A stretch of 64,000 nt of DNA from the NCBI RefSeq assembly GCF_965641715.1, contig NZ_OZ282453.1, one strand, 5' to 3'. Position numbers: made by a program. This DNA comes from Escherichia coli (lineage in GTDB: Bacteria; Pseudomonadota; Gammaproteobacteria; Enterobacterales; Enterobacteriaceae). Shown here one piece after another: positions 21,001-24,000 of this stretch. Position 1 is the stretch's first letter, and each line of letters starts with the position of its first letter.

Positions 21001-24000
21001 ATTTCAATGCCATGTTCCGGCAACGCTTTACCGCAGTTGACGAAAGTCGATACGGCGCGTGTCTCTGCACCCGGCGCGACGGCTTTACCCTGATATTCGA
21101 GGATGTCGCGATCCACTTCGTTAACCACAACCCCGGAGGCTTCATCAGAGAAGCTGACAGCCAGCGCATTTTCTGCCAGTCCGTAGCACGGCATGAAAGT
21201 TTTATCGTCAAAGTTAACCTGACGGAAACATTCAGCGAATTGATGGAGTTGTTCTGCGGAGATGGGTTCTGCACCAATACCAGCGACGCGCCAGCAGGAA
21301 AGATCCAGTTCAGCGAGATCTTTTTCATTCACGCGGCGCTGGCACAATTCATAGCCAAACGGCGGCGCAACGGAAACGGTGCCGCGATTTTTACTGATCA
21401 ATTTAAGCCATTGCAGAGGACGCATGGCAAAATCCTGAGTGCGCAAATAATCTACTGAAAGCTGCGTGGCGACCGGGGTCAGGAGAAAGCCGACCAGTCC
21501 CATATCATGGTAGAAAGGCAGCCAGGAGACGCAGCGGTCGCCAGGGCGTAATTTAATGCCGTCGTGGCTTATAGCACGTAGATTAGCCATCACTTCGCGA
21601 TGGGTGATAATGACGCCACGGGGAAAACGGGTGCTGCCGGAGGTGTACTGGAGGTAGGCGATATCGTTCGGAACTGGACGCTGGAGCGCAACATCGGCTT
21701 CCGGTAATGCCTTATACCAGGCGTGGCTTAATACATGCAATTCGGGGTTGTTATGCGTGGCGGCATTGACCAGCGGCAACCACTCATCACCAGTGATAAT
21801 GGCAGCGGGCTGGCAACTTGCCAGTAAACCCTGCAGTTTGGCGCTCCAGGAATCCCGCTGACCGACGCCCATTGGAATCGCCAACGGGACGGCGACTAAG
21901 CCGGCATACTGGCAGGAAAAAAAAGCCTCTACGAACCCGCTACTGGTTTCGGCAATCAGTGCCACGCGATCGCCTTTTTTCAGGTTCAGCGATAACAACC
22001 GCTTCGCACCAGCTTCGGCACGCGCTTTTAACGTCTGATATTCCAGTTGATCTTCAAGTTGGCAACGTCTGTCATAAAAATTCATTCCAGCGCTACTCAG
22101 AGCGGCGTAGTCCAAAGCATCAACCAGCGTTGGAAAATCGGCATAGCGCATAGGTAGGGAATGCGTAAAGATTTTATTAGACATATACACCACGAAAAAA
22201 TTGGATATCAAAAATAAAATGACAATAATGCGGTGGATTATATAGGTATAAAAGATAAATGAGATAGTATTTTCATTGGTGTGATATTGAACATTGATTA
22301 AAATAATGCTTTAAATCTTAACTCTGTTTATTGTGAATAATATTTAATTTATGAATATATTAAGATAATGCGCTGGTGGGTCGCATTAAATCCACAATAG
22401 TCATGTTGATCGGCTAACGGTGGCGCTGGTGTATCGTAATTATTCATAAATATTATTTTATTTTTCCTTATATTCATTGCGTGGATAGTTAAGGTACCGT
22501 CCGTTGCTGTTTATTTTCAGCATTAATTATTTGTTATCCACTAAGCTATGGAACGCGATCTGCTGATGATTAAAATTGAAAAAGTAATAAATAAAAATGA
22601 CTTAAAGGCATTTATCGCTTTTCCGTCATCACTTTATCCCGACGATCCAAACTGGATACCCCCTTTATTCATTGAACGCAACGAGCATTTGTCTGTGAAA
22701 AATCCGGGGACGGACCATATCATCTGGCAGGCGTGGGTGGCAAAAATAGCCGGGCAGATAGTTGGGCGTATTACCGCGCAAATCGATACCTTACACCGCG
22801 AGCGTTACGGCGAAGATACCGGTCATTTCGGCATGATTGACGCCATTGATGATCCGCAGGTTTTTGCCGCGTTGTTTGGCGCAGCGGAAGCGTGGTTGAA
22901 GTCACAAGGTGCAAGTAAGATCAGCGGGCCTTTCAGCCTGAATATCAATCAGGAAAGCGGATTACTGATTGAAGGTTTTGACACACCACCCTGTGCGATG
23001 ATGCCACACGGCAAACCGTGGTATGCCGCGCATATTGAACAACTGGGTTATCACAAAGGCATTGATTTACTGGCGTGGTGGATGCAGCGAACCGATCTCA
23101 CTTTCTCTCCGGCGCTAAAAAAACTGATGGATCAGGTGCGCAAAAAGGTGACCATTCGCTGCATCAATCGTCAGCGGTTTGCCGAAGAGATGCAGATCCT
23201 GCGTGAGATTTTCAACTCTGGCTGGCAGCACAACTGGGGATTTGTGCCGTTTACCGAACATGAATTCGCGACCATGGGCGACCAACTTAAATATCTGGTG
23301 CCGGACGATATGATCTACATCGCTGAGATTGATTCTGCACCCTGCGCGTTTATTGTCGGCTTGCCGAACATCAACGAGGCGATTGCCGATCTGAACGGAT
23401 CTCTCTTTCCCTTCGGCTGGGCAAAATTGCTGTGGCGTTTGAAAGTCAGCGGTGTGCGAACTGCGCGAGTACCGCTGATGGGCGTGCGCGACGAGTATCA
23501 GTTCAGCCGCATCGGCCCGGTGATTGCGCTGTTATTGATTGAAGCCTTACGCGATCCGTTTGCCCGCCGGAAGATCGATGCGCTGGAGATGTCATGGATC
23601 CTCGAAACCAATACAGGCATGAATAACATGCTGGAACGCATTGGGGCAGAGCCGTACAAGCGTTACCGATTGTATGAAAAGCAGATTTAATACCAGCTAA
23701 CTCTGGTTCATCTCCAGCGGCACCGCCGAGCGAATCAAATGGTGGCCTTCCAGCTCGATATCGTGGAGATTCTTTTTCACGGTCCGCACATGATCGCGTG
23801 CTGCGCGCTGGGCGACGTGCGGCAGCCGCTGCAACACCGCGTTGTAGATCCGCGCATGCTGGCGATCGATCTGCTTTTTTTGCTGTGGTCGATGGTAGAG
23901 ATTATTTACGCTGGCAAACACTGAATTAAACATCAGATCGGTCAATGATTGCAGCGTAAACACCAGCACCTGATTGTGAGAAGCCTGACAAATGGCGAGA

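What the first reader, a model, noticed from the sequence alone, without database searches (positions are those of the whole stretch)
22212..22547. Extremely AT-rich divergent control region between the biosynthesis operon and yghO
The 336-bp spacer is far more AT-rich than the flanking coding sequence, with repeated A/T tracts. Such regions in E. coli are commonly silenced by nucleoid proteins, so the locus may be cryptic under laboratory conditions.
Basis: inference. Interest (0 to 1): 0.4.

Follow-up and report, generated by a model that had tools for sequence, protein, structure and literature searches.

The report
AT-rich promoter spacer of ceramide genes
This very A+T-rich stretch of about 360 bases is the shared control region between two back-to-back gene sets that E. 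coli would need to make ceramide-type lipids. It probably keeps them switched off in the lab, which is an ordinary kind of bacterial gene silencing, although this copy carries a rare, swapped-in variant of the region.

Summary
Window 22212-22547 is 29% G+C, against 53% for coding sequence. It is the second most AT-rich 336-bp stretch in the 64 kb (z = -4.5).

It is the divergent spacer between aasR-epi-acpR-spt (leftward) and yghO, the cerS-type N-acyltransferase gene (rightward). Together these are the E. coli dihydroceramide genes.

The arrangement and the AT-rich spacer recur in 42 of 45 related loci from other genera. The true spacer is most likely 22186-22547, because the aasR start lies at 22185 rather than PGAP's 22151.

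H-NS silencing is plausible but untested:
- The composition matches the sslE promoter 11 kb away, a proven H-NS/StpA target.
- BL21, which carries the cluster, shows no native serine palmitoyltransferase activity.
- No H-NS motif enrichment, A-tract phasing, clear promoter or transcription-factor site exceeds chance.
- K-12 and O157 Sakai have deleted the site, so their ChIP data cannot be used.

- The aasR-proximal 115 bp is 95-97% identical across Escherichia species.
- The yghO-proximal 250 bp is a replaced patch. This allele occurs in 25 of 5426 E. coli genomes and is closest to Escherichia sp. E1V33.

Verdict: an ordinary kind of element in an under-studied locus.

The parts
22186..22547 (.). 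Divergent intergenic spacer (362 bp, G+C 0.293) between aasR and yghO. This is the finding, with its left boundary corrected.
   Evidence: Composition. Left boundary from the conserved N-terminal extension. Right boundary from PGAP and the in-frame ATG conserved in Escherichia.
22150..22625 (.). Full AT-rich tract (50-bp windows mostly 16-34% G+C), extending into the first codons of both genes.
20463..22185 (-). aasR, a fatty acyl-AMP ligase / specialised acyl-ACP synthetase and first gene of the leftward operon. The start is revised to ATG 22185; PGAP gives 22151.
   Evidence: NCBIfam NF006624 at 866 bits. ECD_02851 is named aasR in BL21. Conserved N-terminal extension. PGAP annotations disagree between genomes.
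19552..20466 (-). epi/cerR-type NAD-dependent reductase, second gene of the operon.
   Evidence: Pfam Epimerase PF01370. ECD_02852 is named epi.
19272..19520 (-). acpR, the specialised acyl carrier protein.
   Evidence: ECD_02853 is named acpR.
18100..19272 (-). spt, serine palmitoyltransferase, last gene of the operon.
   Evidence: NCBIfam equivalog NF047599 at 599 bits, above the cutoff of 500. The BL21 enzyme ECD_02854 was shown to be active.
22548..23690 (+). yghO, a GNAT-type N-acyltransferase and homologue of Caulobacter CC_1154 (cerS/aca). It is the rightward gene. In all other genera the protein starts at the equivalent of Met7 (22566).
22186..22299 (.). aasR-proximal segment. Pairwise identity is 95-97% across eight Escherichia sequences, against 84-90% in the coding flanks for the other Escherichia species. 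Presumed aasR core promoter, operators and 5' UTR.
22237..22265 (-). Best sigma-70-like candidate for the aasR promoter: -35 ATCTCA, 17-bp spacer, perfect -10 TATAAT at 22242-22237, predicted start near 22230. This is a prediction only.
   Evidence: 10.05 bits, which does not exceed the best score in composition-matched shuffles (mean 10.9).
22326..22366 (+). Conserved block inside the variable half (TTTATTGTGAATAATATTTAATTTATGAATATATTAAGA). It holds a candidate yghO promoter: TTGTGA at 22331-22336, 19-bp spacer, TATATT at 22356-22361, predicted start near 22368. This is a prediction only.
   Evidence: Conservation 0.86-0.95 against 0.56-0.71 on either side. PWM score 9.27 bits.
22367..22437 (.). 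Hypervariable G+C-normal central island (about 50% G+C). Type A (this window) and type B (most E. coli) are only about 52% identical, yet both are G+C-normal.
22438..22547 (+). yghO-proximal AT-rich arm (G+C 0.27), 69-74% identical between haplotypes and with a 7-bp indel. Presumed yghO leader.

Best explanation
The spacer is the shared, back-to-back promoter and leader region of the E. coli dihydroceramide (sphingolipid) genes. The aasR-epi-acpR-spt operon is transcribed leftward and yghO (a cerS-type N-acyltransferase gene) rightward.

Its two arms, each about 200 bp, 70-85% A+T and rich in TpA steps, most likely nucleate H-NS/StpA filaments. These would occlude both promoters, and possibly bridge across the G+C-normal centre, so that the pathway stays off in ordinary laboratory culture until a still unknown counter-silencing signal arrives.

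The aasR-proximal 115 bp is under strong purifying selection and presumably holds the core promoter and operators. The yghO-proximal 250 bp evolves or recombines rapidly and exists as at least three haplotypes. This window carries the rare one.

Shown: the composition, the gene identities, the conserved divergent architecture, the conservation and polymorphism pattern, and the lack of native enzyme activity in BL21.

Inferred: H-NS occupancy, silencing as the cause of that inactivity, the promoter positions, and bridging.
For: Composition: G+C 0.29, z = -4.45, second lowest in 64 kb. The spacer has 0.127 TpA steps per bp and 45% of its bases in W>=6 runs, equal to or above the sslE upstream region in the same window. 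H-NS and StpA bind and repress that region (which cites Yang 2007). [quoted passage not shown]

Gene identities: the spt equivalog scores above its cutoff, and the aasR, acpR and epi families match. The BL21 homologues are named aasR, epi, acpR, spt and yghO (= aca/cerS) in Padilla-Gomez 2022.

Silence in the lab: BL21 empty-vector extracts formed no 3-oxo-sphinganine. C41(DE3), a BL21 derivative, carries the intact spacer as type B.

Architecture: the divergent arrangement occurs in 42 of 45 loci from other genera. The spacer is 303-1128 bp and always 6-24 G+C points below its flanks.

Conservation: 22186-22299 is 95-97% identical across Escherichia species whose coding flanks are 84-90% identical.

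Rapid divergence of the upstream-of-gene part fits the published observation that H-NS-bound intergenic regions upstream of genes evolve faster.
Against: - No H-NS ChIP or hns-mutant expression data for this site could be obtained.
- The tCGATAAATT motif gives one 8/10 match and seven matches at <=3 mismatches, against 8.2 expected from composition.
- The A-tracts are not phased (p = 0.79).
- The flanking genes have normal G+C (0.48-0.58), so this is not a classic xenogeneic island and a filament could not spread far.
- The BL21 result shows lack of activity, not its cause, and it concerns the type B allele rather than the type A allele in this window.
- Promoter-like hexamers are no better than in shuffled sequence, so the promoter positions are guesses.
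Confidence: 0.55

Rival explanations
1. It is an ordinary AT-rich bidirectional promoter region governed mainly by one or more specific regulators or an alternative sigma factor, for example an envelope-stress or lipid-responsive one. The genes are quiet only because the inducer is absent, and H-NS plays little or no role.
For: - The ultra-conserved 22186-22299 segment and the 22326-22366 block look like specific operator or promoter footprints rather than mere composition.
- The flanking genes have normal G+C.
- There is no H-NS motif enrichment or A-tract phasing.
- GTGGAT/ATCCAC occurs four times against 0.14 expected, which might mark sites for a specific protein.
Against: - None of 24 transcription-factor or sigma consensus sequences scored above composition-matched shuffles (lowest p about 0.10).
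- There is no CRP-like site.
- The GTGGAT copies are allele-specific and absent outside Escherichia.
- No regulator gene is adjacent: glcC belongs to the glc operon and lies beyond yghO.
- AT content this high is rarely free of H-NS in E. coli (general knowledge; for the trend).
Confidence: 0.3
2. The AT-richness is a passive by-product with no regulatory meaning: either AT-biased mutation acting on weakly constrained spacer DNA, or a leftover of the cluster's horizontal acquisition.
For: The yghO-proximal half is highly diverged between alleles (57-84% identity per 100 bp), as expected of weakly constrained DNA. E. coli mutation is AT-biased (general knowledge).
Against: - The aasR-proximal arm, one of the most AT-rich parts (22186-22299, G+C 0.26), is the most conserved, more so than the coding flanks.
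- Both haplotypes keep the same pattern of AT arm, G+C island and AT arm although the island sequences are only about 52% identical.
- An AT-rich spacer is maintained in all 42 orthologous loci.
- The coding G+C of the cluster matches the host, so there is no sign of recent foreign origin.
Confidence: 0.08
3. The spacer hides an unannotated product that explains its length and conservation: a small protein, an sRNA, or a cis-acting leader such as a riboswitch or attenuator.
For: - A 42-codon ORF lies on the minus strand at 22349-22477.
- A weak terminator-like hairpin with a T-run lies at 22505-22522 just upstream of yghO. A different small hairpin with a T-run sits at the same place in type B.
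- The predicted yghO leader would be about 180 nt long.
Against: - No Rfam match at E<=1 in the window region, and none at gathering score in 13 related loci.
- Fold energies are not unusual (z from -0.6 to -1.7).
- The ORF spans the hypervariable island, where types A and B are only about 52% identical, and no conserved ORF exists in the longer spacers of other genera.
Confidence: 0.07

Closest known systems
sslE (yghJ) promoter region of the T2SS-beta operon, silenced by H-NS/StpA in a temperature-dependent way (Yang et al. 2007; Corsini et al. 2016, PMC5012682)
   Same: It lies 11 kb away in the same window and has the same composition (G+C 0.295, similar TpA and A-tract density). It is an AT-rich regulatory spacer next to genes of normal G+C, and its promoter shows strain-to-strain polymorphism.
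   Different: For sslE, H-NS/StpA binding, repression and Fis antagonism have been demonstrated. Nothing has been measured here. sslE is a unidirectional promoter; this one serves two divergent genes.
Classic H-NS nucleation regions (proU, bgl) with the high-affinity tCGATAAATT motif (Lang et al. 2007, PMC2094087)
   Same: AT-rich (about 70-78% A+T), rich in TpA steps, and made of two AT-rich segments that flank a promoter region and could be bridged.
   Different: There is no match better than 8/10 to the motif and no enrichment over composition. No upstream or downstream silencer elements have been mapped.
Caulobacter crescentus sphingolipid region: aasR-cerR-acpR-spt operon CC_1165-CC_1162, plus cerS CC_1154, LptC2/F2/G2 and a flippase (Olea-Ozuna 2021/2024; Padilla-Gomez 2022)
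   Same: The same five dihydroceramide genes occur, with the same gene order within the operon. Neighbouring LptF/LptG paralogues and a flippase-like gene (yghQ) are also present in the window.
   Different: In E. coli and its relatives, cerS (yghO) sits head-to-head with aasR and shares one spacer. In Caulobacter it lies several genes away. The Caulobacter genes are expressed and needed for fitness, whereas the E. coli genes appear inactive in culture.
Sequence diversification of H-NS-bound promoters (ybdO; Higashi et al. 2016, PMC4720273) and horizontal regulatory switching of intergenic regions in E. coli (Oren et al. 2014, recalled from memory)
   Same: Flanking genes are 97-100% identical while a 250-bp upstream patch is 57-84% identical. 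The alternative allele is shared with another Escherichia species.
   Different: No expression difference between the alleles has been measured, and H-NS binding at this site is unproven.

Membership tests
H-NS/StpA-silenced AT-rich regulatory region | A+T content far above the genome average over several hundred bp | tested here: met
   70.7% A+T over 362 bp. The tract spans about 475 bp. z = -4.45 against all 336-bp windows.
H-NS/StpA-silenced AT-rich regulatory region | High-affinity nucleation motif (tCGATAAATT-like) with interspersed weaker sites | tested here: inconclusive
   The best match is 8/10 (TTCATAAATT, minus strand at 22355). There are seven sites with <=3 mismatches against 8.2 +/- 2.9 in shuffles.
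H-NS/StpA-silenced AT-rich regulatory region | Intrinsic curvature from helically phased A-tracts (a frequent but not obligatory feature) | tested here: not met
   Power ratio at the 10-11 bp period is 1.23 against a shuffle mean of 2.01, p = 0.79.
H-NS/StpA-silenced AT-rich regulatory region | H-NS occupancy in vivo (ChIP) | not testable with these tools
   The site is deleted in K-12 and O157 Sakai. The CFT073 table is truncated and the H10407 peak list is not published as text.
H-NS/StpA-silenced AT-rich regulatory region | Derepression in hns/stpA mutants | not testable with these tools
   No paper in the library links spt or yghO with H-NS.
H-NS/StpA-silenced AT-rich regulatory region | Low or absent expression of the controlled genes under standard conditions | tested here: inconclusive
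   This is literature evidence only. BL21(DE3) empty-vector extracts show no 3-oxo-sphinganine formation. That is indirect and concerns the type B allele.
Divergent (bidirectional) promoter region | Flanking genes transcribed away from each other, with a conserved pairing | tested here: met
   aasR is on the minus strand and yghO on the plus strand. The same arrangement occurs in 42 of 45 loci across Enterobacterales and Pseudomonas.
Divergent (bidirectional) promoter region | Two identifiable promoters, one per strand | tested here: inconclusive
   Candidates exist (-10 TATAAT at 22242-22237 on the minus strand; TTGTGA-19-TATATT at 22331-22361 on the plus strand). Their scores do not exceed shuffles. 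The second lies in a conserved block.
Rhodobacteria-type dihydroceramide gene set (aasR, cerR/epi, acpR, spt, cerS/aca) | Serine palmitoyltransferase of the proteobacterial type | tested here: met
   NF047599 equivalog at 599 bits, above the cutoff of 500.
Rhodobacteria-type dihydroceramide gene set (aasR, cerR/epi, acpR, spt, cerS/aca) | A specialised ACP gene immediately upstream of spt, with an acyl-ACP synthetase and a reductase in the same operon | tested here: met
   The gene order is aasR-epi-acpR-spt, with overlapping or abutting ORFs. The BL21 orthologues were characterised.
Rhodobacteria-type dihydroceramide gene set (aasR, cerR/epi, acpR, spt, cerS/aca) | N-acyltransferase homologous to Caulobacter CC_1154 | tested here: inconclusive
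   YghO has no Pfam or NCBIfam hit. Homologues are named GNAT/N-acetyltransferase. The homology to CC_1154 is stated by Padilla-Gomez 2022 and was not recomputed here.
Regulatory-region allele replacement (horizontal regulatory switching) | A sharply bounded divergent patch in a spacer between near-identical genes | tested here: met
   Against strain N2250, 22300-22560 is 78/57/84% identical per 100 bp while the flanks are 97-100%. See also alignment A2.
Regulatory-region allele replacement (horizontal regulatory switching) | The same allele is present in a different lineage or species, discordant with the flanks | tested here: met
   The patch is 98/91/94% identical to Escherichia sp. E1V33, whose flanks are 84-95% identical. 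E. whittamii carries the other type.
Regulatory-region allele replacement (horizontal regulatory switching) | The alleles differ in expression | not testable with these tools
   This needs reporter fusions or RNA-seq.

The most novel reading that the evidence does not exclude
The yghO-proximal 250 bp is a naturally exchanged regulatory cassette. At least three ancient haplotypes circulate among Escherichia species: A in 25 E. coli genomes, a common B form in about 3650, and a B2-type sub-allele in about 480. Each keeps the layout of AT arm, G+C island and AT arm. On this reading the haplotypes set different silencing or counter-silencing thresholds for the ceramide synthase gene and the divergent operon. 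Some wild E. coli lineages, such as the one sampled here, would then make sphingolipids under conditions in which BL21-type strains do not.
Probability: 0.15. Interest if true: 0.6.

Novelty: new member of a known kind. Interest (0 to 1): 0.33.

Why it matters
E. coli is usually described as lacking sphingolipids, yet about three quarters of complete genomes (4155 of 5426) carry this spacer with the five dihydroceramide genes. LptF/LptG paralogues lie next to them in this window.

Nobody has reported when these genes are expressed. The searchable literature contains no regulatory study of the locus. The two best-studied strains for nucleoid-protein mapping, K-12 and O157:H7 Sakai, have both lost it.

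This spacer is the obvious place to look for the switch. If H-NS silencing is confirmed, an hns or stpA mutant, or a promoter swap in BL21, would be a simple way to reveal the lipid product.

The promoter-patch polymorphism is also a clean natural example of regulatory-region replacement between near-identical genes.

The AT-rich promoter itself is an ordinary feature.

Tried and rejected
1. Published H-NS data.
- K-12 lacks the site because of an IS5-associated deletion.
- O157 Sakai lacks the whole locus.
- The CFT073 per-gene table is truncated before the locus.
- For H10407 only the CRP peaks are tabulated.
- The supplements for SE11/SE15/K-12 and for the EHEC Pch study contain no entry for these genes.

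2. Promoter prediction. The consensus scan found three sites against 3.5 expected. The best PWM score was 10.05 bits against a shuffle maximum averaging 10.9. Neither is discriminating.

3. Transcription-factor and sigma consensus scan (24 motifs, including Fur, IHF, Fis, Lrp, ArcA, FNR, CRP, PhoP, PmrA, PhoB, OmpR, CpxR, RcsB, sigma-E, sigma-54, MarA, FadR, FabR, DnaA, SlyA and LeuO). Nothing exceeded chance. The 'ETEC-specific' CRP site of Haycocks 2015 is not in this window.

4. RNA elements. Rfam found nothing in the window region or in 13 related loci. Leader folds gave z from -0.6 to -1.7.

5. Small ORFs. The 42-codon ORF at 22349-22477 spans the island that differs between haplotypes, and no shared ORF exists in the 650-1130-bp spacers of other genera.

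6. Repeats.
- There are no tandem repeats.
- An 18/22 inverted repeat flanks the central island (22336-22357 / 22441-22462). It exceeds mononucleotide shuffles but drops to 13/22 in type B by my own reading of alignment A2. I rejected it as a conserved element.

7. Mobile-element origin of the variable patch. There were no phage hits, and the only 'plasmid' hits are mislabelled chromosomes.

8. DnaA-box idea. TTATCCACT at 22534 (TTATCCACA in type B) plus three 7/9 relatives. The copies are allele-specific and absent outside Escherichia, and DnaA-box-like 9-mers with <=1 mismatch occur 22 times across the window. I kept this only as a passing note.
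Full report
OBSERVATION

The interval 22212-22547 has G+C 0.292. 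By comparison the whole window is 0.523, the annotated coding sequence 0.530, and the other twenty intergenic regions pooled 0.426. Among all 336-bp windows of the 64 kb it lies at z = -4.45. The local minimum (22161-22496, 0.280) is second only to the sslE upstream region (0.271). The region is not unique, however: the glcA-sslE, gss-pitB and yghT-yghS spacers are equally AT-rich.

At 50-bp resolution the AT-rich tract runs from about 22150 to about 22625. It reaches into both coding 5' ends and is interrupted by a G+C-normal island at about 22366-22437.

A/T tracts are present: nine runs of A4+ or T4+, and 45% of bases lie in runs of six or more W. They are not helically phased (p = 0.79), and there are no tandem repeats.

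WHAT FLANKS IT

The window is an E. coli chromosome segment with the gene order hyb, gss, pitB, yghTSRQ..., glc, sslE, gsp, pheV, speC. It is closest to strain XH990.

To the left, on the minus strand, lie four genes:
- a fatty acyl-AMP ligase (NF006624, 866 bits);
- an NAD-dependent epimerase/reductase;
- an acyl carrier protein;
- a serine palmitoyltransferase (equivalog NF047599, 599 bits against a cutoff of 500).

To the right, on the plus strand, lies yghO. It has no Pfam or NCBIfam hit, but its homologues are named GNAT/N-acetyltransferase.

Padilla-Gomez et al. 2022 studied the BL21(DE3) orthologues. They named them aasR (ECD_02851), epi (ECD_02852), acpR (ECD_02853), spt (ECD_02854) and aca = yghO (ECD_02850). 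The last is the homologue of Caulobacter CC_1154/CerS. They noted that the five dihydroceramide genes are clustered only in Caulobacter and E. coli BL21.

The window also has LptF/LptG paralogues, a YtfJ-family gene and the flippase-like yghQ just beyond spt. This mirrors the LptC2/F2/G2 and flippase genes of the Caulobacter region.

BOUNDARIES

Translating upstream in 42 orthologous loci shows a conserved N-terminal peptide (MSNKIFTHSLP in Escherichia, MSETSSTHSLP and similar elsewhere) that begins at the ATG equivalent to 22185. PGAP itself is inconsistent between genomes.

For yghO, every non-Escherichia genus starts at the Met7 equivalent (22566), preceded by a TAAGG Shine-Dalgarno sequence. 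Escherichia has an extra in-frame ATG at 22548.

The spacer is therefore most likely 22186-22547.

COMPARATIVE EVIDENCE THAT IT IS A CONTROL REGION

The head-to-head aasR/yghO arrangement is found in 42 of 45 loci retrieved with YghO from Enterobacterales and Pseudomonas. The three exceptions are one short locus without enough upstream sequence, one 430-bp contig, and one second yghO copy. The spacer is 303-1128 bp long and always has lower G+C than its coding flanks, by 6-24 points (mean 15). No ORF is conserved in the long spacers.

Within Escherichia (eight sequences, alignment A2) the pattern is as follows:
- The aasR-proximal 22186-22299 is 95-97% identical in pairwise comparisons. That is more conserved than the coding flanks, which are 84-90% identical for the other Escherichia species.
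- A second conserved block lies at 22326-22366.
- Everything else is variable.

THE VARIABLE HALF

Against the common E. coli allele (strain N2250), the flanking genes are 97-100% identical. By contrast, 22300-22399, 22400-22499 and 22500-22599 are only 78%, 57% and 84% identical. The same patch is 98/91/94% identical to Escherichia sp. E1V33, whose flanks are only 84-95% identical. E. whittamii carries the common E. coli type.

The central island of this 'type A' allele occurs in 25 of 5426 complete E. coli genomes. 'Type B' occurs in 4128, and 481 of those form a sub-type only 60-80% identical to the query.

Types A and B are about 52% identical in the island, yet both keep the layout of AT arm (14-34% G+C), G+C island (44-51%) and AT arm. 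The patch has no phage or plasmid relatives.

This is a sharply bounded regulatory-region replacement, or an old polymorphism shared across species. It resembles what has been described as horizontal regulatory switching (Oren et al. 2014, from memory). It also fits the faster evolution of H-NS-bound regions upstream of genes (Higashi et al. 2016).

DOES H-NS SILENCE IT?

Direct data could not be obtained:
- K-12 has an IS5 in place of everything from the 3' end of yghQ to about codon 14 of yghO.
- O157:H7 Sakai has lost pheV-to-pitB next to SpLE3.
- The CFT073 per-gene H-NS table held here is cut off before this locus.
- The H10407, SE11/SE15 and EHEC supplements give no entry for it.
- No paper in the library links spt or yghO to H-NS.

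Indirect support:
[quoted passage not shown] H-NS and StpA bind and repress that region.
- H-NS occupancy tracks low G+C in ETEC ChIP-seq.
- BL21 extracts with empty vector make no 3-oxo-sphinganine although BL21 carries the genes. C41(DE3), a BL21 derivative, has an intact type B spacer.

Against, or neutral:
- The tCGATAAATT motif is not enriched.
- The A-tracts are not phased.
- The neighbouring genes have host-like G+C.

I put H-NS occupancy at roughly 0.75. I put H-NS as the main cause of silence at roughly 0.5.

MECHANISTIC MODEL (INFERENCE)

The model has two back-to-back promoters. One faces aasR in the invariant arm; the best candidate is -10 TATAAT at 22242-22237, with a start near 22230. 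The other faces yghO in the conserved 22326-22366 block; this is TTGTGA-19-TATATT, with a start near 22368, which would make the hypervariable island the 5' end of a leader of about 180 nt.

Neither candidate scores above shuffled sequence, so these positions are hypotheses.

The two AT-rich arms on either side of the island could each nucleate H-NS and be bridged. No specific transcription-factor site, sigma-factor promoter, Rfam family or stable RNA fold was detected.

VERDICT

The 'divergent control region' reading is supported. The 'H-NS-silenced, cryptic' reading is plausible and partly supported but untested.

In kind, this is an ordinary AT-rich, probably H-NS-type promoter spacer, so it counts as a new member of a known kind. 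Three things add interest:
- the locus it controls, the little-studied E. coli ceramide genes;
- the absence of the site from the standard model strains;
- the rare, cross-species promoter haplotype in this window.

Noticed in passing
window 22152-22185 (aasR 5' end): The PGAP start of the fatty acyl-AMP ligase (22151) is probably 11 codons too short. The peptide MSNKIFTHSLP from ATG 22185 is conserved in about 40 loci of other genera. A GTG at 22194 aligns with an ATG in Citrobacter amalonaticus. PGAP calls differ between genomes.
   Followed up: yes
window 22548-22566 (yghO 5' end): In every non-Escherichia genus YghO starts at the Met7 equivalent (22566), preceded by a TAAGG ribosome-binding site, giving a 374-aa protein. 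Escherichia has lost that site and has an in-frame ATG six codons upstream.
   Followed up: partly
window 22300-22560: The yghO-proximal half of the spacer is a replaced patch. It is 57-84% identical to the common E. coli allele while the flanking genes are 97-100% identical. It is closest to Escherichia sp. E1V33. The type A island occurs in only 25 of 5426 complete E. coli genomes, from varied hosts. Type B has a further sub-type in 481 genomes, including ST131.
   Followed up: yes
window 22372-22379: A perfect Chi site (GCTGGTGG) sits in the central island. Its first base (G at 22372) is a SNP private to this window. All 25 complete genomes with this allele have C there, and so have no Chi site.
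   Followed up: partly
window 22233, 22390, 22481, 22536: GTGGAT/ATCCAC occurs four times in 362 bp (0.14 expected). One copy is the DnaA-box-like TTATCCACT at 22534-22542, just before the yghO start; it is the perfect TTATCCACA in type B and in E1V33. The copies are allele-specific and absent outside Escherichia.
   Followed up: partly
L005 (K-12 S17-1), L052 (strain A23), L054 (O157:H7 Sakai): The locus is lost repeatedly through mobile elements. In K-12, IS5 replaces the 3' end of yghQ through about codon 14 of yghO. In capybara strain A23, IS1 sits inside the spacer (near 22435) with pitB through aasR deleted. In O157 Sakai everything from pheV to pitB is gone next to SpLE3. About 23% of complete E. 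coli genomes lack the spacer.
   Followed up: partly
L015 363-454 of the spacer (Serratia), with matches in L025, L040, L047, L023, L042, L010, L048, L012 and L029: Genera with long spacers (650-840 bp) share a conserved non-coding central block of about 90 nt (...TGGAACTTAAACACTTCC...TTTAAGGCTAATCTTAAAAAGAGCATTAAGTGG...). It has no Rfam match and is absent from Escherichia. Its function is unknown.
   Followed up: partly
window 13143-18065: Next to the ceramide genes lie a flippase-like yghQ, a 274-aa protein with no family, a YtfJ-family protein and paralogues of LptF and LptG. This looks like an export module, similar to the LptC2/F2/G2 plus flippase set in the Caulobacter sphingolipid region.
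   Followed up: partly
window 22336-22357 and 22441-22462: An 18/22 inverted repeat brackets the hypervariable island in this allele. It exceeds mononucleotide shuffles but falls to 13/22 in type B, so it is probably not a conserved element.
   Followed up: yes
window 8889-9179, 11421-11593, 33137-33620: Three other spacers are as AT-rich (29.5-30.6% G+C): gss-pitB, the divergent yghT-yghS spacer, and the sslE upstream region, which is a known H-NS/StpA target.
   Followed up: partly
window 33621-38509: sslE is only 92.9% identical to the closest genome (XH990), while its neighbours are 98-100% identical. The sslE-pppA spacer is 134 bp shorter than in XH990.
   Followed up: no
window 23690-23697: yghO and glcC converge with only a 6-bp gap. 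The pair is listed among RNA-seq-based 'excludon' candidates in K-12 (ExcludonFinder, PMC12288877).
   Followed up: no
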